From positions 2,754 to 66,753 of the forward strand of contig JARLJA010000004.1 in NCBI GenBank assembly GCA_031291445.1: a stretch of DNA of 64,000 nucleotides. Direction: 5' to 3'. Origin of the DNA: Xanthobacteraceae bacterium. Its GTDB lineage: Bacteria > Pseudomonadota > Alphaproteobacteria > Rhizobiales > Xanthobacteraceae. The position numbers and the translations under genes were made by a program. The stretch's first letter is position 1; the number at the start of each line of letters is the position of its first letter. Below are positions 30,616-36,268 of this stretch, piece by piece. The notes beneath the pieces were generated by a model that worked only from the letters and a program-made list of their open reading frames with translations, ran no database searches and was not told the DNA's origin.

Positions 30616-31254
30616 TTACGCCACGCGATGCCCGAGCGCGGCGCGGTTGGCGGCGAAGGCGCGATCGTATTCGATGATCCCGGCGACGCGGTCGCGGGCG
30701 GCATCGCCGTAGAGCCGGCCGAGAATGTAGAGCATGCCGTCGATGGCGAGCGAGACGCCGCCGCTGGTGACGACGCCGTGGTCGTCGGACACCGCCGCCG
30801 CCGGCGCGGCCGCAACCGACGCGGCCAGCAGATCGAGCGGCGCCTGCGTTTCCGCCCCGACCGCGTTGCGGCGGGTGGTCGCGGTGCGGCCCGCCAGTTG
30901 CCCCGACGCCGCCAGGATCAGGGCCCCGGTGCAGACCGAAGCGAGCTGCGACGGCGCTCGGTCGCGGAGAAATGCCAGCATGCGGGGATTGTCGACCTGT
31001 TTGCGCCAGCCGGGGCCGCCGGTGACCACTGTCACGTCACAGGGCGGCGCATCCGTGAAGCCGGCGTCGGCGAGAATGGTGAGACCGCTCGCCAGCCGCA
31101 CCGGACCGGCCTGTTCGGCGATGGTCACATGGCGCAGCGCCGGCAGGATCCGCTGCGCCATCGATAGCACGCCGATGGTGCCGCCGACGTCGATCGGCTC
31201 GACGCCCTCATAAACCACGATGCCGATCACGGCGGGTTCGTCCATTGCCTTCAT
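30616..31254 (-). CDS. DJ-1/PfpI family protein
   Basis: VEPID, VTGGPG, ASVCTGA nucleophile elbow, TSGGVS. Confidence 0.85.
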   Translation of the reverse strand: MKAMDEPAVIGIVVYEGVEPIDVGGTIGVLSMAQRILPALRHVTIAEQAGPVRLASGLTILADAGFTDAPPCDVTVVTGGPGWRKQVDNPRMLAFLRDRAPSQLASVCTGALILAASGQLAGRTATTRRNAVGAETQAPLDLLAASVAAAPAAAVSDDHGVVTSGGVSLAIDGMLYILGRLYGDAARDRVAGIIEYDRAFAANRAALGHRVA

Positions 31255-31398
31255 GGTGTTCTCGCACTTCCTGTCGCGTGACTCGTGCCGCGGCCGCCGT
31301 ATGGGCCGAAACCCGGTCCCGTGTTATGCCATGGCGTGCAATTCGCGCGCCACGCGTGTAGTAGAATCTCGATCGTTCGCGTCGTCCACCGGATCGTC

Positions 31399-32046
31399 AT
31401 GCCAAAGTCTGCCGCCTCCAGATCCGCCTCGAAGTCCGCCGCCGGAACAGCCACCAGGCCGCCGCCGACCGAGGACGGCACGCGGTCCCAGGCCGAGATC
31501 CTGGCGGCCGAGGTGCGCTTCCACCGCAAGCGCCTCGGCCTGCCGCTCGAGGCGCTGGCGGAATTGTCGGGCGTCAGCCGCTCCATGATCTCGAAGGTCG
31601 AACGCGCCGAGGCGGTGCCCTCCACCACCGTGCTGTCGCGCCTCGCCGAAGCGCTCGGCGTGACATTCTCCCGGCTGATGGCGCCCGCCACCGAGCGCGA
31701 GGTGCTGCACATTCCGGCGCCAAGGCAGCCGGTGCTGCGCGACGAGGCCTCCGGCTTCCAGCGCCGCTGCCTGTCGCCGGTACTGCCCGGCCGCGGCATC
31801 GACTGGGTCCTCAACACCCTGCCGCCCAAGGCCACCACCGGCGATTTCACCGCGCACCGTCACGGCGTGTCGGAATACATCTACGTGCTCAAGGGCCGGC
31901 TCAGCGCCGTGATCGGCGAGCGCACCATCATCGTCGCCGAGGGCGACAGCCTCTATTTCGAGGCCGATGCCGGTCATTCCTTCACCAATATCGGCACCGG
32001 GCCCTGCGAATACTTCCTGGTCATAGACTCCTCGCGCATGCGGTAG
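31399..32046 (+). CDS. XRE-family HTH plus cupin transcriptional regulator
   Basis: LEALAELSGVSRSMISKVER HTH; EYIYVLKG...GDSLYF...HSF cupin. Confidence 0.9.
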   Translation: MPKSAASRSASKSAAGTATRPPPTEDGTRSQAEILAAEVRFHRKRLGLPLEALAELSGVSRSMISKVERAEAVPSTTVLSRLAEALGVTFSRLMAPATEREVLHIPAPRQPVLRDEASGFQRRCLSPVLPGRGIDWVLNTLPPKATTGDFTAHRHGVSEYIYVLKGRLSAVIGERTIIVAEGDSLYFEADAGHSFTNIGTGPCEYFLVIDSSRMR

Positions 32047-32072
32047 ACCTCGCGCTATCGTTGTTTTTTGGC

Positions 32073-32341
32073 GTCATTGCCGCGCTTGACCCCGGCAATC
32101 CCCCCTTCTCTTCCGCAGCGGCCGCCCTAAAGCGTGGACCCGCGGGTCAAGCCGCAGGTGACGCTGAGAATGCAGCGACGTGATTGGTTAGTCGCACGCG
32201 CTTCGGCAATCGCGGCGTCATTGCCGGGCAACCGGATCCGGCCTGCGGCCGGTCCGGCTGTAAACTTGACCCGGCAATCCACGCTTTGCGACGCGGCGAG
32301 GCCTCAAAGAGTGGATGCGCGGGTCAAGCGCGCTCATGACG
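32073..32341. repeat. Two tandem REP-like elements (GTCATTGCC...GGTCAAGC...TGACG); the second has a hairpin insert
   Basis: 32073..32163 and 32217..32341 share gtcattgcc/cttgacccggcaatc/gggtcaagc; same family as 6159..6283. Confidence 0.75.
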
Positions 32342-32477
32342 CGTAAAACAATGCACTTGCGAATGACGCGCAAAAGGTGAGCGGTTCCCGAATTGGCTGC
32401 GCATTTCCTAATCACTGACCGGCGGTGTGATGGACCGCCGTGCTCTCAAGTGCTTGAATTTCCTCATACGGGCAGTT

Positions 32478-32493
32478 TGGCACGCCCATTGCT
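32478..32493 (+). promoter_or_regulatory. Sigma54 (-24/-12) promoter
   Basis: TGGCAC-gccca-TTGCT, exact consensus and spacing, 47 bp upstream of the MFS gene. Confidence 0.82.
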
Positions 32494-32529
32494 TTCCTGG
32501 ATAGTGGATTTTTTTCCATCATGCAGGAA
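32494..32529. promoter_or_regulatory. Tandem TTCCA-N6-TGGAA-like operator sites
   Basis: ttcctggatagtggat (32494-32509) and ttccatcatgcaggaa (32514-32529). Confidence 0.55.
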
Positions 32530-32540
32530 GCGAGGCCGCC

Positions 32541-33860
32541 ATGTCCATAGCCCCCGCCGTCGAGGAACTGCCGCTTGCCGCCGCGGAAACCTCGGCCCTC
32601 AATCGCATCGTCTGGGCGAGCGTGCTCGGCACCGTGATCGAATGGTACGACTTCCTGATCTACGGCACCGCCGCAGCGCTGGTGTTCGGCAAGCTGTTCT
32701 TTCCGACGCTGGACCCGCTGGCTGGAACGCTGGCGGCGTTCGGCTCCTACGCGGTCGGCTTCGTGGCGCGGCCGCTTGGCGGCGTCGTCTTCGGCCATTA
32801 TGGCGACCGGCTCGGCCGCAAGGTGATGCTGGTGGCGACCATGCTGATCATGGGCATCGGCACCTTCCTGATCGGATGCCTGCCGACCTATTCCCACATC
32901 GGCATCTGGGCGCCGATCCTCCTGATCGGCCTGCGCCTGCTGCAGGGCATCGGCGTCGGCGGCGAATGGGGCGGCGCGGCGCTGATGGTGGTCGAGCACG
33001 CGCCCGAGGGACGGCGCGGCTTCTACGGCAGCCTGGTGCAGGTCGGATTTCCCGCCGGCATCGCCGGCTCGACCGCGACCTTCCTGCTGCTCGCCTATCT
33101 GCCGGAGGCCGACTTCCTGACATGGGGCTGGCGACTGCCGTTCCTGCTGAGCGCGATCCTGATCGCGGTCGGGCTGTTCGTGCGGCTGAAGCTCGCGGAA
33201 ACCCCGGTGTTCGAGCAGATCCGGCGCGAGGAGGCGGTGGCGCGGCTGCCGCTGGCGGAGCTCGTCAGCGATCACGGCAGGTCGCTCATGATCGCGGTCG
33301 GCCTCAAGGTCTCGGAGGTCGCCTGGGTCTACGTCTTGACGGTGTTCTCCATCGTCTACGCCACCAGCCAGCTCGGCCTGCCCAAGACCCTCATCCTCAA
33401 CGCCATCCTGGTGGCGGCGCTGCTGGAATTCATCACCATTCCGCTGTTCGGCTGGCTGTCCGACCAGGTCGGGCGCCGCACCATGTATATCGCCGGCGCG
33501 CTGATCAGCGCGGTCTGCGCGTTTGCGATCTTCGCTCTGCTCGACACCAGGAACCCGCTGATCGTCGTGCTCGCCATCGCCGTGGTCGTGAGCCTGACCC
33601 ATGCCGTGATGTTCGCGCCGCAGGCGGCCTTCCTGCCCGAGATGTTCGGCACCCGCACCCGCTACAGCGGCGCGTCGATCGGCTGCCAGGTGGCCGCGGC
33701 GCTGTCGGGCGGCTTCGCCCCGATCATCGCCACCGGCCTGTTGGGCTGGTCCGGCAAGAGCTGGCCGATCTCGGTGTTCCTGGTGGTGCTGGCAGCGATC
33801 ACGCTGACGGCGGCGCTGGCCTCGGTGGAAACCAAGGATCTCGACCTCTCCCGTGGCTGA
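32541..33860 (+). CDS. MFS transporter, metabolite:H+ symporter family (ShiA-like)
   Basis: IEWYDFLIYG, ARPLGGVVFGHYGDRLGRK, GGEWGGA, LAETPVF. Confidence 0.92.
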   Translation: MSIAPAVEELPLAAAETSALNRIVWASVLGTVIEWYDFLIYGTAAALVFGKLFFPTLDPLAGTLAAFGSYAVGFVARPLGGVVFGHYGDRLGRKVMLVATMLIMGIGTFLIGCLPTYSHIGIWAPILLIGLRLLQGIGVGGEWGGAALMVVEHAPEGRRGFYGSLVQVGFPAGIAGSTATFLLLAYLPEADFLTWGWRLPFLLSAILIAVGLFVRLKLAETPVFEQIRREEAVARLPLAELVSDHGRSLMIAVGLKVSEVAWVYVLTVFSIVYATSQLGLPKTLILNAILVAALLEFITIPLFGWLSDQVGRRTMYIAGALISAVCAFAIFALLDTRNPLIVVLAIAVVVSLTHAVMFAPQAAFLPEMFGTRTRYSGASIGCQVAAALSGGFAPIIATGLLGWSGKSWPISVFLVVLAAITLTAALASVETKDLDLSRG

Positions 33861-33878
33861 GCCACCGGCTTGACCCGC

Positions 33879-33894
33879 TTCCATGATAGTGGAA
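33879..33894. promoter_or_regulatory. TTCCA-N6-TGGAA palindrome upstream of ridA
   Basis: ttccatgatagtggaa; 13/16 identical to the site at 32494. Confidence 0.6.
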
Positions 33895-33926
33895 ATACGT
33901 CTCATCGTTTCTTAGAGGCCCGCACC

Positions 33927-34313
33927 ATGACCAAGACCATCGTCTCCACCCCCAAGGCGGCCCCGGCCGTCGGTCCCTACTCCCAGGCAACCCAGTCCGA
34001 GCAGATGGTGTTTGCTTCCGGCCAGCTTCCGATCGATCCCGCCACCGGCACCATTCCCGACGGCATCGAGGCCCAGACCCGCCAGTCGCTGGCCAACCTC
34101 ACCGCCGTGCTGGAAGCCGGCGGCGCCACGCTCGCCAGCGTCATGAAGACCACCGTGTTCCTCAAGAACATGAACGACTTCGCGGCGATGAACGCGATCT
34201 ACGCCGGTGCTTTCACGGATGCGCCGCCGGCGCGCTCGACCATCGAGGTGGCGCGGCTGCCGCGCGACGCGCTGGTCGAGATCGAGGCCATCGCCCTCCG
34301 GGTGCGGAGCTAG
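33927..34313 (+). CDS. RidA family enamine/imine deaminase
   Basis: GPYSQA, SGQLP, KTTVFL, PPARST (catalytic Arg), VEIEAIA. Confidence 0.92.
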   Translation: MTKTIVSTPKAAPAVGPYSQATQSEQMVFASGQLPIDPATGTIPDGIEAQTRQSLANLTAVLEAGGATLASVMKTTVFLKNMNDFAAMNAIYAGAFTDAPPARSTIEVARLPRDALVEIEAIALRVRS

Positions 34314-34317
34314 CTCC

Positions 34318-34902
34318 ATGCATGCTCCCGTCGCGGGCCGGCCGCCGCCGAAGATGGTGGAGGCGTTCAGCCATCCGGCCGGATCGGTCGCGGCCGCAAC
34401 CCCGGGCGGCGCCACCGCGTGGCGCGGCCGCCTCCTGCACATCCACGTCGCGCCGGAGGCGAGCTACGAGATGGAGGAACTCGCCGAGGCCGAGTGCGTG
34501 GCCGGCCGCGGCATCGTCGGCGACCGCTACTACAACGGCACCGGCACCTATTCGCCGAAGCCCGACGTACGCGAGGTAACCCTGATCGAGCAGGAGGCCC
34601 TCGACGCCCTGGCGCGCAACGATCCGCCGCTGCAGGACGGTCCGATCGTGCTGGAGCCGCGCGACCATCGCCGCAATCTCACGGTCGTCGGCGTGCCGCT
34701 CAATCACCTGGTCGGCCGGCGCTTCCGGGTCGGCGACGTCATCCTGCGCGGCGGCCGGCTGAATTTTCCGTGCAAGTATCTCGAGGAGATCCTCGGCAAG
34801 CCGGTGTTCCTGCCGCTCTACAACCGCTCCGGGCTGAACTGCGGGATCGAGCGCGGCGGCATCATCCGACCGGGCGACGTCATCGAACTGCTCGAGCCAT
34901 GA
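34318..34902 (+). CDS. MOSC domain protein (molybdenum cofactor)
   Basis: GRGIVGDRY, REVTLIE, RRNLTV, NFPC (Moco-ligating Cys position), GIIRPGD; start codon uncertain. Confidence 0.85.
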   Translation: MHAPVAGRPPPKMVEAFSHPAGSVAAATPGGATAWRGRLLHIHVAPEASYEMEELAEAECVAGRGIVGDRYYNGTGTYSPKPDVREVTLIEQEALDALARNDPPLQDGPIVLEPRDHRRNLTVVGVPLNHLVGRRFRVGDVILRGGRLNFPCKYLEEILGKPVFLPLYNRSGLNCGIERGGIIRPGDVIELLEP

Positions 34903-35837
34903 CCGCCCGCATCATCATGAAGCTGCGGGTCGCGCGGGCCCGCCTGACCGCGCCCGACGTGCTGCACCTCGACCTGGTGCATCCGTTGCGCCCCGAGCTG
35001 CCGGAATGGACCGCCGGCGCCCATGTCGACCTGCGGATGCCCGACGGCAAGATCCGGCAGTACTCGCTGTGCGGCGATCCGGCCGATCGCAGCAAATACG
35101 AGATCGCCATCAAGCGCGAGCCATCCGGCCGGGGCGGATCGGTCTGGGCGCACGAGCACCTTAAGGAAGGCGCCATCGCCCACGTCTCCGCGCCCCGCAA
35201 CAACCTGCCGCTGGTGGCGGCGCAACGCACCGTGCTGGTGGCGGGCGGCATCGGCATCACGCCGTTCGTTGCCATGGCCCATGAGCTGACGCGGCGCGGC
35301 CAGGACTTCGTCCTGCACTACTGCGCGCGTTCCCGCGAGGAGGCGCCGCTCATCGCCGAACTCGAAGCGATCTGCGGATCGCGGCTGAAGTGCTGGTTCT
35401 CCCGCGGCGGGTCGCGGTTCGACCCGGCGGTGATCGGCCCCCATGATGGCGGCACCCACGTCTATGTCTGCGGGCCGCAGCGGCTCTTGGATGCTGTGCA
35501 GGGCGCGCTGGCGGACTGGCCGGAGGAGCAGATCCATGGCGAGGTGTTCCAGGCGACGCTGGACGAGAACTTCAAGGCCGAGCCGTTCGAGGCCGTGATC
35601 GCCTCCACCGGCCAGCGTCTGCTGGTGCCGGCCGACCGCTCGCTGCTCGCGGTGCTGCGCGACGCCGGCTTCATCGTCGCCTCGTCCTGCGAGCTCGGCG
35701 TCTGCGGCTCCTGCGAATGCGGCTACCGTGACGGCCTCGTGATCCACCGCGACAAGTCGCTCGCGGTCGGCAAGCGGCAGGACCGCATGCTGCCCTGCGT
35801 CTCCCGCGCCCGGGTCAGCGTCACGCTGGAGATGTGA
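34899..35837 (+). CDS. PDR/VanB-family flavin-[2Fe-2S] oxidoreductase
   Basis: GAHVD, RQYSLC, GGIGITPF, YVCGP, SCELGVCGSC. Confidence 0.92.
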   Translation: MTARIIMKLRVARARLTAPDVLHLDLVHPLRPELPEWTAGAHVDLRMPDGKIRQYSLCGDPADRSKYEIAIKREPSGRGGSVWAHEHLKEGAIAHVSAPRNNLPLVAAQRTVLVAGGIGITPFVAMAHELTRRGQDFVLHYCARSREEAPLIAELEAICGSRLKCWFSRGGSRFDPAVIGPHDGGTHVYVCGPQRLLDAVQGALADWPEEQIHGEVFQATLDENFKAEPFEAVIASTGQRLLVPADRSLLAVLRDAGFIVASSCELGVCGSCECGYRDGLVIHRDKSLAVGKRQDRMLPCVSRARVSVTLEM

Positions 35838-35977
35838 CGCGCGGCTGGTGGCGCGCTCGCACCCTGCGGCATCCACACGTCTCGTCGCGGCTCCGGTCAT
35901 GTTGGCCGAGAGCTTCGTCTTCCGCGGTTAACCGTTTCCCCCTTATGGGATTATATACTAGACAAGTAGAGCCTGTG

Positions 35978-36268
35978 CTAAGGCTGTCGTTTTGTGAGGT
36001 AATCGACCATTTCCAAGATAACCGGTCTCACATGGGGCTGCCAGACATACACTGAAAGGAATAGGCCAAAGCTGAAGGCAGACACAAAAAACACAATCGC
36101 CCCCAGCGTCCCGTAGCCAACGAGCCACGCCGCGCCAACCCCTACAAAGAACGACGCGACGAGCCCGGAGACGAGGAAACTAAGCAGCAACGCAAAGCCG
36201 AGAAGGCCGAGCCAAAACCCGGCTACAAATTTTCCGCACTTCTCAAGGATGTGCGCAATTTGGCTCAT
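35978..36268 (-). CDS. Hypothetical membrane protein (96 aa)
   Basis: Strongly hydrophobic ORF; ATG overlaps the upstream stop (ATGA). Confidence 0.55.
   Translation of the reverse strand: MSQIAHILEKCGKFVAGFWLGLLGFALLLSFLVSGLVASFFVGVGAAWLVGYGTLGAIVFFVSAFSFGLFLSVYVWQPHVRPVILEMVDYLTKRQP

What the first reader, a model, noticed from the sequence alone, without database searches (positions are those of the whole stretch)
30616..35837. Sigma54-driven MFS-RidA-MOSC-PDR operon: a compact mARC-like N-reductive nitrogen-scavenging system
Seen: an exact sigma54 promoter; three related TTCCA-N6-TGGAA sites (two right after the -12 element, one before ridA); then MFS importer, RidA, a stand-alone MOSC protein and an overlapping (ATGA) flavin-[2Fe-2S] reductase, with no Rieske oxygenase nearby; XRE-cupin regulator and DJ-1 gene upstream. 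Known: MOSC enzymes (YcbX, YiiM, mARC) reduce N-hydroxylated compounds using flavin/Fe-S partners; RidA hydrolyses imines; sigma54 often marks nitrogen-regulated genes. Inference: import, then N-O reduction by MOSC plus PDR, then imine hydrolysis releasing ammonia from an oxime, hydroxylamine or N-oxide substrate, gated by both a distal enhancer-binding protein and the XRE repressor.
Basis: partly seen in the sequence, partly recalled or inferred. Interest (0 to 1): 0.68.

Follow-up and report, generated by a model that had tools for sequence, protein, structure and literature searches.

The report
Sigma54-gated MOSC reductase uptake operon
A conserved but unstudied alphaproteobacterial operon pairs a small molybdenum (MOSC) enzyme with its own flavin/iron-sulfur electron donor, an organic-acid importer and an imine hydrolase, and probably lets the cell strip nitrogen from N-oxygenated acids such as oximes, though no substrate has been tested.

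Summary

Comparison with 80 related loci shows a real, conserved system:
- MOSC and the PDR-type reductase are adjacent in 81 of 81 loci.
- MFS importer in 63, XRE-cupin in 60, RidA in 56, DJ-1 in 42.
- A sigma54-type site lies 57-95 nt before the MFS start in 54 of 62 loci.
- The dyad operator goes with the close XRE-cupin ortholog in 30 of 31 cases.

Where the MFS gene is missing, a TRAP transporter takes its place. Its binding protein is closest to alpha-keto-acid binders (TakP), which points to a small alpha-substituted carboxylate as substrate.

The invariant MOSC cysteine aligns with the molybdenum-site Cys120 of E. coli YiiM. No Rieske oxygenase lies on the contig and no enhancer-binding protein is local. 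NtrC is the likeliest activator, by elimination only.

Best reading: import, then N-O reduction by MOSC plus PDR, then RidA hydrolysis of a 2-imino acid to a keto acid and ammonium. Chemistry and substrate remain inferred. No paper describes this cluster. I rate it a new variant of known MOSC N-reductases, interest about 0.6.

The parts
30616..31254 (-). DJ-1/PfpI-family protein, closest solved relative isocyanide hydratase. Divergent from the regulator gene. A conserved cluster member.
   Evidence: PF01965 46 bits. 3NON isocyanide hydratase E 2e-21. Invariant ASVCTGA nucleophile elbow and EPID motif in 12 orthologs. Present in 42 of 81 loci, in some inside the operon.
31359..31366 (.). Possible degenerate fourth operator half-site (TAGTAGAA) between DJ-1 and the regulator gene.
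   Evidence: The closest relatives L009, L011 and L018 carry TAGTAGAA-N5-TTCCACT at the same place. The window keeps only the left half.
31399..32046 (+). XRE-family HTH plus cupin regulator (PuuR-like architecture), the presumed local ligand-sensing repressor.
   Evidence: HTH_3 52.8 bits and Cupin_2 60.6 bits. Present in 60 of 81 loci. Its close ortholog accompanies 30 of the 31 promoter-plus-operator pairs.
32056..32385 (.). REP-like dispersed repeats inserted between the regulator gene and the promoter. Not part of the conserved system.
   Evidence: Internal direct and inverted repeats. About 190 blastn hits across the genome. Relatives have only about 100 nt here.
32478..32493 (+). Sigma54 (-24/-12) promoter TGGCACGCCCATTGCT. 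Predicted transcription start near 32504.
   Evidence: Only exact match in the window. A sigma54-type site lies 57-95 nt before the MFS start in 54 of 62 loci, against 0.011 expected per 220 nt. rpoN is present in the genome.
32494..32529 (.). Two operator dyads, TTCCTGGATAGTGGAT and TTCCATCATGCAGGAA, with centres 20 bp apart. They cover about -10 to +26 of the sigma54 promoter.
   Evidence: Inverted repeat I8. The conserved core ATAGTGGA-N6-TCCACTAT follows the -12 element in 31 loci. TAGTGGA-N6-TCCA has only one other match in the 6.3-Mb genome, on contig C15.
32541..33860 (+). MFS importer of the metabolite:H+ symporter (MHS) type.
   Evidence: TIGR00883 442.6 bits, cut-off 443.45. Shikimate transporter model 421 bits, below its cut-off. 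Present in 63 of 81 loci. Replaced by DctPQM TRAP genes in Xanthobacter, Stappia, Jiella and other loci.
33879..33894 (.). Third operator dyad, TTCCATGATAGTGGAA, in the MFS-ridA spacer.
   Evidence: The equivalent site before ridA or before MOSC is the perfect palindrome TTCCACTATAGTGGAA in L011, L018 and L030, with variants in other loci.
33927..34313 (+). RidA-subfamily imine/enamine deaminase.
   Evidence: TIGR00004 156.4 bits, cut-off 106. PF01042 135.8 bits. Present in 56 of 81 loci, sometimes downstream of PDR.
34318..34902 (+). Stand-alone small MOSC protein (194 aa; alternative start at 34354), the presumed molybdenum-cofactor reductase.
   Evidence: PF03473 30.8 bits. 59 invariant columns among 25 orthologs, including Cys140. 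Cys140 aligns with E. coli YiiM Cys120 by hhalign (E 1e-4). Top fold hits are YuaD, YiiM and mARC1, but the model is weak.
34899..35837 (+). Phthalate-dioxygenase-reductase-type FMN / NAD(P)H / [2Fe-2S] reductase, the electron donor to MOSC.
   Evidence: 2PIA E 1e-57 over residues 7-306. Fer2 and NAD_binding_1 hits. Adjacent to MOSC in 81 of 81 loci with gaps of 0-25 nt. ATGA overlap in the window.

Best explanation
This is a conserved accessory operon of Alphaproteobacteria that takes up and reductively de-oxygenates an N-oxygenated organic acid. The steps below are marked as shown or inferred.

1. Control. Transcription starts at a sigma54 promoter that needs an enhancer-binding protein encoded elsewhere, most plausibly NtrC. 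It is also blocked by the neighbouring XRE-cupin regulator. That regulator binds TTCC-N8-GGAA dyads over the transcription start, before ridA, and probably before its own gene and the DJ-1 gene. Ligand binding to the cupin domain would release it. The operon would then fire only when both signals are present. The promoter and the operator are shown by conservation. Who binds them is inferred.

2. Uptake. An MHS-type MFS symporter imports the substrate. In other genera a TakP-like TRAP system does this job. The substrate is therefore probably a small alpha-substituted monocarboxylate (inferred).

3. Reduction. The PDR-type reductase passes electrons from NAD(P)H through FMN and a [2Fe-2S] cluster to the molybdenum cofactor of the small MOSC protein. 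MOSC then cleaves an N-O bond, as mARC, YcbX and YiiM do. The pairing is shown by invariant adjacency. The chemistry is inferred.

4. Hydrolysis. With a 2-oximino acid such as pyruvic or glyoxylic oxime, the product is a 2-imino acid, the canonical RidA substrate. RidA hydrolyses it to a 2-oxo acid and ammonium (inferred).

5. DJ-1. The isocyanide-hydratase-like DJ-1 protein keeps its catalytic cysteine and belongs to the same regulon. Its step is unknown.
For: Gene identities.

MOSC-PDR pairing:
- MOSC and PDR are adjacent in 81 of 81 loci. MFS is in 63, XRE in 60, RidA in 56 and DJ-1 in 42.
- The MFS-MOSC-PDR trio persists down to about 48% MOSC identity. It is lost in homologs of 40% identity or less.
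- A second pair, MOSC_N-MOSC next to an FNR/[2Fe-2S] reductase, lies on another contig of the same genome.
- No Rieske domain lies on the window's contig.

MOSC as an enzyme:
- Invariant Cys140 aligns with YiiM Cys120. That cysteine is invariant across the MOSC family and sits next to the modelled Mo atom (PMC5818509).
- moeA is present in the genome.
- All MOSC proteins assayed so far are N-reductive. mARC reduces oximes, hydroxylamines, hydroxamic acids and N-oxides, and MOSC proteins need flavin and Fe-S or haem partners (PMC10637980).

Substrate class:
- The MFS gene is replaced by DctPQM behind the same kind of promoter.
- The TRAP binding protein's best solved relatives are TakP 2HZK/2HZL, an alpha-keto-acid binder (PMC1839085), and 7UG8, named 'Ketoacid-binding protein'.
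- The carboxylate-binding Arg177 and Glu214 of TakP are kept.
- RidA scores above the cut-off of the RidA subfamily model.

Regulation:
- The sigma54 site is exact in the window and conserved in 54 of 62 MFS-type loci at a fixed distance. It is also present in the TRAP-type loci.
- rpoN is present.
- The operator is conserved and goes with the close XRE ortholog in 30 of 31 cases. TRAP-type loci carry a divergent XRE-cupin and a different palindrome.
- The paired operator motif (TAGTGGA-N6-TCCA) has only one other match in the genome, on contig C15.
- Only 1 of 81 loci has an enhancer-binding protein within 6 kb.
- The ligand-sensing GAF and PAS activators of this genome do not co-occur with the cluster.
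- NtrC, NtrX, a FlbD-like protein and one other response-regulator activator are the only ones shared by three genomes that have the promoter.
Against: - No activity, ligand or expression data exist.
- The MOSC structure model is poor (pLDDT 62). Its fold matches to YuaD, YiiM and mARC1 are weak (best E 2.4e-3). Sequence profiles find no solved MOSC structure.
- No enteric-type NtrC box or any shared upstream palindrome was found. In several loci the regulator gene ends about 40 nt before the -24 element, which leaves no intergenic room for an enhancer.
- Eight of 62 MFS-type loci lack the sigma54 pattern.
- RidA is missing from 25 loci and DJ-1 from 39. The model gives DJ-1 no role.
- Two TakP ligand or cation contacts are changed in the TRAP binding protein (Tyr100 to Phe, Glu240 to Gln), so the ligand is not a plain 2-oxo acid.
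- A 62%-identical MOSC in another genome sits beside xanthine-dehydrogenase-type subunits instead of a PDR. Small MOSC proteins may therefore have other roles.
Confidence: 0.5

Rival explanations
1. This is a detoxification system like E. coli YcbX and YiiM. MOSC plus PDR would reduce mutagenic N-hydroxylated bases (6-hydroxylaminopurine) or other N-hydroxylated xenobiotics made in or entering the cell. The transporter and RidA would be only loosely linked.
For: The only bacterial MOSC functions known are resistance to N-hydroxylated base analogues (PMC10637980, PMC5818509). The MOSC profile aligns with YiiM. A MOSC protein has been implicated in bacterial breakdown of benzoxazinoid hydroxamic acids (PMC11568528).
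Against: - The transporters are uptake types. TRAP systems depend on a binding protein and only import, and the binding protein resembles keto-acid binders, not purine binders.
- The operon has a dedicated ligand-sensing regulator and a sigma54 promoter, which is typical of nutrient-use operons.
- RidA co-occurs in 56 of 81 loci, yet base reduction yields no imine.
- The protein lacks the 3-alpha domain of YiiM and the MOSC_N and ferredoxin domains of YcbX.
Confidence: 0.15
2. MOSC plus PDR does reduce an imported acid, but at a different oxidised group: an N-oxide, a nitro or nitronate group (for example 3-nitropropionate), a hydroxamate (giving an amide that the DJ-1-like cysteine hydrolase could cleave), a sulfoxide, or nitrite or peroxide.
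For: mARC also reduces N-oxides, hydroxamic acids, hydroxylamines, nitrite and hydrogen peroxide (PMC10637980, PMC10489706). A hydroxamate route would give the conserved DJ-1/isocyanide-hydratase-like enzyme a job as an amidase. Cluster-bearing genera are often plant-associated.
Against: - RidA acts on 2-imino acids and enamines. Only reduction of oximes, or dehydration of N-hydroxy amino acids, yields those.
- The TakP-like binding protein points to an alpha-substituted small carboxylate.
- No MOSC enzyme is known to reduce nitro groups or sulfoxides (my own knowledge, not tested here).
Confidence: 0.2
3. The MOSC protein is not a reductase but a carrier of molybdenum cofactor or sulfur, and the PDR serves an oxygenase encoded elsewhere, so the gene order is coincidental.
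For: MOSC domains were first proposed to be sulfur carriers. A 62%-identical MOSC in another genome lies next to xanthine-dehydrogenase-type Moco subunits. The genome has 11 Rieske-domain genes elsewhere.
Against: - Adjacency in 81 of 81 loci across many genera, often with overlapping or 0-25 nt gaps, is not coincidence.
- No Rieske or Moco-hydroxylase gene lies in any conserved position of the cluster.
- Fused and paired MOSC plus flavin/[2Fe-2S] arrangements recur (PMC10637980).
Confidence: 0.05
4. A regulatory rival: the promoter is sigma70-type (TTGGCA-17-GATAGT, overlapping the same bases), and the palindromes form an RNA hairpin in the 5' leader rather than a protein operator.
For: The sigma70 scan finds TTGGCA/GATAGT at 32477-32505 with 9 of 12 matches. 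The two dyads are 80% complementary and could pair (I8).
Against: - Conservation falls on GG-N10-GC and on TTGC at -12, which would lie in a sigma70 spacer.
- Bradyrhizobium variants read CGGCAC, a poor -35 element.
- The distance from TTGC to the ATAGTG core varies by 1 nt between loci.
- The half-sites are conserved in sequence rather than by compensatory change.
- The same palindrome occurs alone before ridA or MOSC, and it goes with the regulator subtype.
- Half of the would-be hairpin lies upstream of the predicted start.
Confidence: 0.07

Closest known systems
E. coli YcbX with CysJ
   Same: A MOSC molybdoenzyme is fed by a flavin reductase through a [2Fe-2S] centre and reduces N-hydroxylated substrates (PMC10637980, PMC5818509).
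   Different: YcbX has MOSC_N and a fused ferredoxin domain and borrows CysJ from sulfite reductase. Here MOSC stands alone. The [2Fe-2S] domain sits on a dedicated PDR-type FMN reductase whose gene overlaps the MOSC gene. The operon also carries an importer, RidA and its own regulator.
E. coli / Geobacillus YiiM (6-hydroxyaminopurine reductase)
   Same: It is a small bacterial MOSC protein. The family profile aligns with YiiM, with the invariant cysteine, the N87 equivalent and flanking motifs in register.
   Different: There is no C-terminal 3-alpha domain. Similarity is remote (hhalign probability 58%; no HMMER hit). YiiM's electron donor is unknown (PMC5818509), whereas here a donor is encoded next door.
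Eukaryotic mARC with cytochrome b5 and its reductase
   Same: It is a three-centre chain, NAD(P)H to flavin to a one-electron carrier to Moco. Its documented substrates include oximes (PMC10637980).
   Different: Here the carrier is [2Fe-2S] rather than haem, two proteins rather than three, there is no MOSC_N domain or membrane anchor, and the setting is a substrate-inducible uptake operon.
B. subtilis YuaD-type stand-alone MOSC proteins
   Same: Single-domain architecture of about 180 aa. YuaD (1ORU) is the top fold match.
   Different: The fold match is weak (E 2.4e-3, TM 0.31, on a low-confidence model). There is no detectable sequence match. YuaD has no known function or partner.
Pyruvic oxime dioxygenase of heterotrophic nitrifiers
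   Same: It would act on the same class of compound (2-oximino acids) and yields pyruvate (PMC5216522, PMC11841055).
   Different: It is an oxidative, Fe(II)-dependent enzyme related to class II aldolases, and it releases nitrite. The system here would be reductive, Moco-dependent and release ammonium. The proteins share no homology.
Phthalate dioxygenase reductase / VanB-type class IA reductases
   Same: The same FMN - NAD - [2Fe-2S] domain order and a full-length match to 2PIA.
   Different: The acceptor is a MOSC protein, not a Rieske oxygenase or a P450. No Rieske domain lies on the contig.

Membership tests
MOSC superfamily (PF03473) | Match to the family model above its curated cut-off | tested here: met
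   30.8 bits against a cut-off of 22.7. 31.5 bits in the genome scan.
MOSC superfamily (PF03473) | Invariant cysteine next to the molybdenum site (ecYiiM C120, PMC5818509) | tested here: met
   Cys140 is invariant in 25 close and 40 distant homologs. It aligns with YiiM C120 in hhalign.
MOSC superfamily (PF03473) | MOSC beta-barrel fold | tested here: inconclusive
   The AF2 model has pLDDT 62 and pTM 0.62. The top Foldseek hits are YuaD, YiiM and mARC1, but the best E is 2.4e-3 and TM about 0.3.
MOSC superfamily (PF03473) | Binds molybdenum cofactor and reduces N-oxygenated substrates | not testable with these tools
   This needs holo-protein biochemistry. The genome does encode MoeA.
YiiM subfamily | C-terminal 3-alpha helical domain after MOSC | tested here: not met
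   The protein ends with the MOSC domain (Pfam match reaches residue 190 of 194). HMMER finds no hit to the YiiM structures.
YcbX subfamily | MOSC_N beta-barrel plus fused [2Fe-2S] ferredoxin domain | tested here: not met
   There is no MOSC_N or Fer2 hit in the 194-aa protein. The Fer2 domain is on the neighbouring PDR.
Phthalate dioxygenase reductase family (class IA) | Full-length FMN-binding, NAD-binding and C-terminal plant-type [2Fe-2S] domains, in that order | tested here: met
   2PIA E 1e-57 over residues 7-306. The reductase domains of CYP116B-type fusion proteins score E 7e-65. NAD_binding_1 and Fer2 hits. The RQYS and C-x4-C-x2-C...C motifs are visible in the translation.
Phthalate dioxygenase reductase family (class IA) | Serves a Rieske or P450 oxygenase | tested here: not met
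   No Rieske domain on contig C166. No oxygenase among the conserved neighbours in 80 loci.
RidA subfamily of Rid proteins | Match to TIGR00004 above its cut-off | tested here: met
   156.4 bits against 106.25. The PARS arginine motif is visible in the translation; its identity with the catalytic Arg105 is from memory.
Sigma54-dependent promoter | GG-N10-GC with TGGCAC-N5-TTGC, placed suitably before the gene | tested here: met
   Exact match 48 nt before the ATG. Conserved in 54 of 62 orthologous MFS-type loci.
Sigma54-dependent promoter | rpoN present, with a cognate enhancer-binding protein and its binding sites | tested here: inconclusive
   rpoN and nine activators are present. None is local. 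No upstream activator site was found. NtrC is favoured by elimination only.
Metabolite:H+ symporter (MHS) family of MFS | Match to TIGR00883 at its cut-off | tested here: inconclusive
   442.6 bits against a cut-off of 443.45, over the full length. This is effectively at the threshold.
DJ-1/PfpI superfamily, isocyanide hydratase branch | Nucleophile-elbow cysteine and conserved Asp, plus isocyanide hydratase activity | tested here: inconclusive
   PF01965 is met, and the Cys108 and Asp22 equivalents are invariant. The match to 3NON is E 2e-21. Activity is unknown.

The most novel reading that the evidence does not exclude
The operon is the first dedicated bacterial pathway for assimilating 2-oximino or N-hydroxy acids, and a reductive counterpart to pyruvic oxime dioxygenase. 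A stand-alone MOSC enzyme with its own PDR donor would convert oximes, formed wherever hydroxylamine meets keto acids, into imino acids. RidA would then split these into a keto acid and ammonium, under joint control by nitrogen status (sigma54/NtrC) and substrate (XRE-cupin). This would give bacterial MOSC enzymes a physiological, nutritional role, and would supply the 'oxime reductase' long postulated in older nitrogen-metabolism literature.
Probability: 0.2. Interest if true: 0.8.

Novelty: new variant of a known kind. Interest (0 to 1): 0.6.

Why it matters
MOSC enzymes are called a large and poorly studied group of molybdoenzymes (PMC10637980). The physiological substrate of mARC is unknown and so is the electron donor of YiiM (PMC5818509).

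This cluster offers a natural, self-contained system of importer, regulator, donor, MOSC and a downstream enzyme. Its gene context narrows the substrate to a small alpha-substituted N-oxygenated carboxylate. It occurs in culturable, genetically tractable bacteria such as Bradyrhizobium, Methylobacterium/Methylorubrum and Rhodopseudomonas.

If the model holds, it would show three things:
- a nutritional role for bacterial MOSC reductases;
- a new acceptor class for PDR-type reductases;
- a route that returns hydroxylamine-derived oximes to ammonium, which bears on soil and phyllosphere nitrogen cycling.

The sigma54 promoter overlaid by a local repressor operator is also a clean example of two-signal control.

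Tried and rejected
1. Solved-structure sequence searches with the MOSC protein and with a 40-sequence profile found no MOSC structure. The link to YiiM came only from hhalign.
2. The AF2 model from 25 close orthologs was of low confidence.
3. Searches for an upstream activator site found nothing shared: neither palindromic 4-mer pairs nor the enteric NtrC consensus at 11 of 14 or better.
4. I looked for a dedicated enhancer-binding protein. None lies within 6 kb in 80 of 81 loci. The GAF- and PAS-type activators of this genome do not co-occur with the cluster.
5. My first ortholog clustering of activators failed, because spurious high-GC ORFs were picked. I redid it with tblastn.
6. Fusion partners of distant small MOSC proteins are heterogeneous (QueG-like, FGE-sulfatase, DsbA, PNPOx, GST, SnoaL and others). 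They give no substrate clue.
7. Distant homologs of 40% identity or less have no PDR, RidA or MFS neighbours.
8. Extra neighbours in one Methylobacterium clade (a DAO-type oxidoreductase and an M20 peptidase) are not conserved elsewhere, so I did not use them.
9. Two literature searches with min_terms=2 returned irrelevant papers.
11. I rejected the reading that PDR serves a Rieske oxygenase, and the sigma70 and RNA-hairpin readings (see the rival explanations).

Full report
**Observation**

- DJ-1/PfpI, 30616-31254 (-)
- XRE-HTH plus cupin, 31399-32046
- an MFS of the metabolite:H+ symporter type, 32541-33860 (TIGR00883 442.6 bits, cut-off 443.45)
- RidA, 33927-34313 (TIGR00004 156 bits)
- a stand-alone MOSC protein, 34318-34902 (PF03473 30.8 bits, cut-off 22.7)
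- a reductase, 34899-35837

The reductase matches phthalate dioxygenase reductase 2PIA over its whole length (E 1e-57). The MOSC stop and the PDR start overlap as ATGA.

TGGCACGCCCATTGCT at 32478-32493 is the only exact sigma54 consensus in the window. It is one of 18 in the 6.3-Mb genome. It lies 48 nt before the MFS ATG.

The three dyads are at 32494-32509, 32514-32529 and 33879-33894. TTCC-N8-GGAA occurs 3 times in the window against 0.8 expected. The core heptamer TAGTGGA occurs only twice in 64 kb, at these two places. No Rieske domain lies on the contig.

**The cluster is conserved**

The MOSC protein is patchy among relatives. It is found in 5 of 41 related genomes and in 12 of 401 genomes of the phylum at E 1e-15.

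It is nevertheless 76-91% identical across Bradyrhizobium, Methylobacterium, Hansschlegelia, Methylopila, Xanthobacter, Stappia, Roseibium, Azospirillum, Belnapia and others. About 2600 clusters at 90% identity exist in the protein collection, and all are named only 'MOSC domain-containing protein'.

Counts over 81 loci, window included:

| Gene | Loci |
|---|---|
| MOSC and PDR adjacent (gaps 0-25 nt) | 81 |
| MFS | 63 |
| XRE-cupin | 60 |
| RidA | 56 |
| DJ-1 | 42 |

In a group of Bradyrhizobium loci the order is XRE-MFS-DJ1-RidA-MOSC-PDR, so DJ-1 is a member and not a bystander. The MFS-MOSC-PDR trio persists in paralogs with about 48% MOSC identity. It disappears in homologs of 40% identity or less. 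The PDR-linked MOSC proteins are therefore a distinct subfamily. MOSC is the most constrained component, with 59 invariant columns among 25 orthologs.

**Transporter swap**

Where the MFS gene is missing (Xanthobacter, Ancylobacter, Stappia, Roseibium, Jiella, Aurantimonas, Hoeflea), a TRAP system DctP-DctQ-DctM sits in its place, behind a sigma54 site.

The best solved relatives of that binding protein are:
- two Bordetella TRAP proteins;
- TakP (2HZK/2HZL), which binds alpha-keto acids with a co-ordinated cation (PMC1839085);
- 7UG8, named 'Ketoacid-binding protein'.

The carboxylate-binding Arg177 and Glu214 of TakP are kept. Tyr100 is Phe and Glu240 is Gln. Two unrelated uptake systems, one of them from the keto-acid-binder clade, argue for an imported small alpha-substituted carboxylate that is related to a 2-oxo acid but not identical to one.

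**The MOSC-PDR pair**

No solved structure matches the MOSC protein by sequence, even with a 40-sequence profile. A profile-profile comparison with E. coli YiiM does align 131 columns (probability 58%, E 1e-4). The GDRY, RRN and PC motifs are in register, and Cys140 falls on YiiM Cys120. That residue is invariant in the whole MOSC family and lies next to the modelled molybdenum (PMC5818509).

The AF2 model is weak (pLDDT 62). Its best fold matches are still YuaD, YiiM and mARC1, at a best E of 2.4e-3. The protein has no 3-alpha domain (YiiM) and no MOSC_N or ferredoxin domain (YcbX).

The mARC review says the following (PMC10637980):
- every MOSC protein assayed so far is N-reductive;
- mARC substrates include oximes, hydroxylamines, hydroxamic acids and N-oxides;
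- YcbX needs CysJ;
- MOSC proteins fused to flavin and [2Fe-2S] domains exist in databases.

YiiM's electron donor is unidentified (PMC5818509).

The same genome carries a second pair, MOSC_N-MOSC next to an FNR/[2Fe-2S] reductase, on contig C177. A flavin/[2Fe-2S] donor for MOSC is thus a recurring theme. Here the donor is a separate PDR-type protein. MoeA is present in the genome.

**Regulation**

A sigma54-type site ([TC]GGCA[CT]-N5-TTG[CT]) lies 57-95 nt before the MFS start in 54 of 62 loci. One further match, in L077, lies only 37 nt upstream. The background is 0.011 per 220 nt. The TRAP-type loci have the site too. rpoN is present.

Directly after the -12 element comes a conserved array, cTCC-N3/4-ATAGTGGA-N6-TCCACTAT-N4-GGAg. 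It reads as two TTCC-N8-GGAA dyads with centres 20 bp apart. In the window they would cover about -10 to +26.

The same unit occurs alone before ridA, or before MOSC where MOSC-PDR is a separate unit. In L011, L018 and L030 it is the perfect palindrome TTCCACTATAGTGGAA. A related site, TAGTAGAA-N5-TTCCACT, lies between DJ-1 and XRE in the closest relatives. The window keeps only its left half, at 31359-31366.

Several points tie the operator to the XRE-cupin protein:
- Of 31 promoter-plus-operator pairs, 30 go with the close XRE-cupin ortholog.
- TRAP-type loci have a divergent XRE-cupin and a different palindrome, GTTGCC-N5-GGCAAC, at -56 and downstream.
- The paired motif TAGTGGA-N6-TCCA has only one other match in the 6.3-Mb genome, on contig C15.

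This fits a local repressor with essentially one target locus. Half-site sequence is conserved rather than pairing, which favours a DNA operator over an RNA hairpin. A sigma70-like TTGGCA-17-GATAGT overlaps the site, but the pattern of conservation fits sigma54 (see the rival explanations).

**The activator**

Only 1 of 81 loci has an enhancer-binding protein within 6 kb. The genome has nine such proteins. The GAF-type one is unique to this genome. The PAS-type one occurs in genomes without the cluster and is missing from genomes that have it.

Among three genomes that carry the promoter (G000, G268, G333), only NtrC, NtrX, a FlbD-like protein and one other response-regulator activator are shared as full-length orthologs. 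NtrC is therefore the most plausible activator.

No NtrC-type box and no common upstream palindrome was found. In several loci the regulator gene ends about 40 nt before the -24 element. Nitrogen control stays an inference.

**Mechanism proposed**

1. Import by the MFS transporter (TRAP in other genera).
2. Electron flow from NAD(P)H through FMN and [2Fe-2S] on PDR to Moco on MOSC.
3. Two-electron cleavage of an N-O bond.
4. If the substrate is a 2-oximino acid, the product is a 2-imino acid, the canonical RidA substrate. RidA gives a 2-oxo acid plus ammonium.

The transporter evidence now sharpens it toward alpha-substituted carboxylates such as pyruvic or glyoxylic oxime.

The role of the isocyanide-hydratase-like DJ-1 protein is unexplained. 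It matches 3NON at E 2e-21 and has an invariant catalytic cysteine. A hydroxamate-to-amide route, in which DJ-1 acts as an amidase, is a live alternative.

**Comparison with what is known**

The system works like mARC with cytochrome b5 and its reductase, and like YcbX with CysJ, but it is not a member of the YiiM, YcbX or mARC subfamilies. Its reductase belongs to the PDR family but serves no Rieske oxygenase.

Pyruvic oxime dioxygenase is the only enzyme I found described for 2-oximino acids. It is oxidative and unrelated (PMC5216522, PMC11841055).

Full-text searches found no paper on this cluster or on a bacterial oxime reductase. It is an unchecked lead, and it suggests that the RidA-MOSC-donor triad recurs with other donors.

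**Verdict**

I rate it a new variant of a known kind, with interest 0.6.

Noticed in passing
window 32056-32385: The spacer between the regulator gene and the sigma54 promoter is about 330 nt longer than in relatives. It is filled by REP-like palindromic repeats that have about 190 blastn hits across the genome. The insertion separates any enhancer in or near the regulator gene from the promoter.
   Followed up: partly
G000 contig C177:41100-43500 (locus L137:610-3003, minus strand): The same genome has a second MOSC system: a YcbX-like MOSC_N-MOSC protein (284 aa), followed about 390 nt downstream on the same strand by an FAD/NAD/[2Fe-2S] reductase (382 aa, 28% identical to the window's PDR).
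   Followed up: partly
L100:3045-6765 (G432:C73): A 62%-identical small MOSC protein in another alphaproteobacterial genome has no PDR. It lies directly after a [2Fe-2S] small subunit and a Moco-binding large subunit of the xanthine-dehydrogenase/aldehyde-oxidase type, and before a glyoxalase-fold gene. Small MOSC proteins may serve different partners.
   Followed up: no
L059, L062, L067, L070, L072, L073, L076, L079, L082, L049, around the sigma54 site: TRAP-type versions of the cluster carry a different conserved palindrome (GTTGCC-N5-GGCAAC-like), about 56 nt upstream of the -24 element and again downstream of the promoter. It goes with a divergent XRE-cupin regulator (25-31% identical).
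   Followed up: partly
L025, L054, L055 (Methylopila), L057, L065, L134 (G038): These MFS-MOSC-PDR loci lack the sigma54 pattern and the TAGTGGA operator, and they have the divergent regulator. Sigma54 control is therefore common but not universal.
   Followed up: no
window 34318-34440 (MOSC residues 1-40): The PDR-linked MOSC subfamily has a conserved N-terminal extension (EAFxHPAG...GG..WxG, with an invariant His) that distant small MOSC proteins lack. It might be a docking or lid element.
   Followed up: no
The only terminator-like hairpin after PDR (35970-35985) lies inside that cassette.
   Followed up: no
L069, L071, L074, L075, L078 (Methylobacterium): In one Methylobacterium clade the cluster is flanked by an FAD-dependent DAO-type oxidoreductase with amino-acid ABC transporter genes on one side, and by an M20 peptidase on the other. 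These neighbours are not conserved elsewhere.
   Followed up: no
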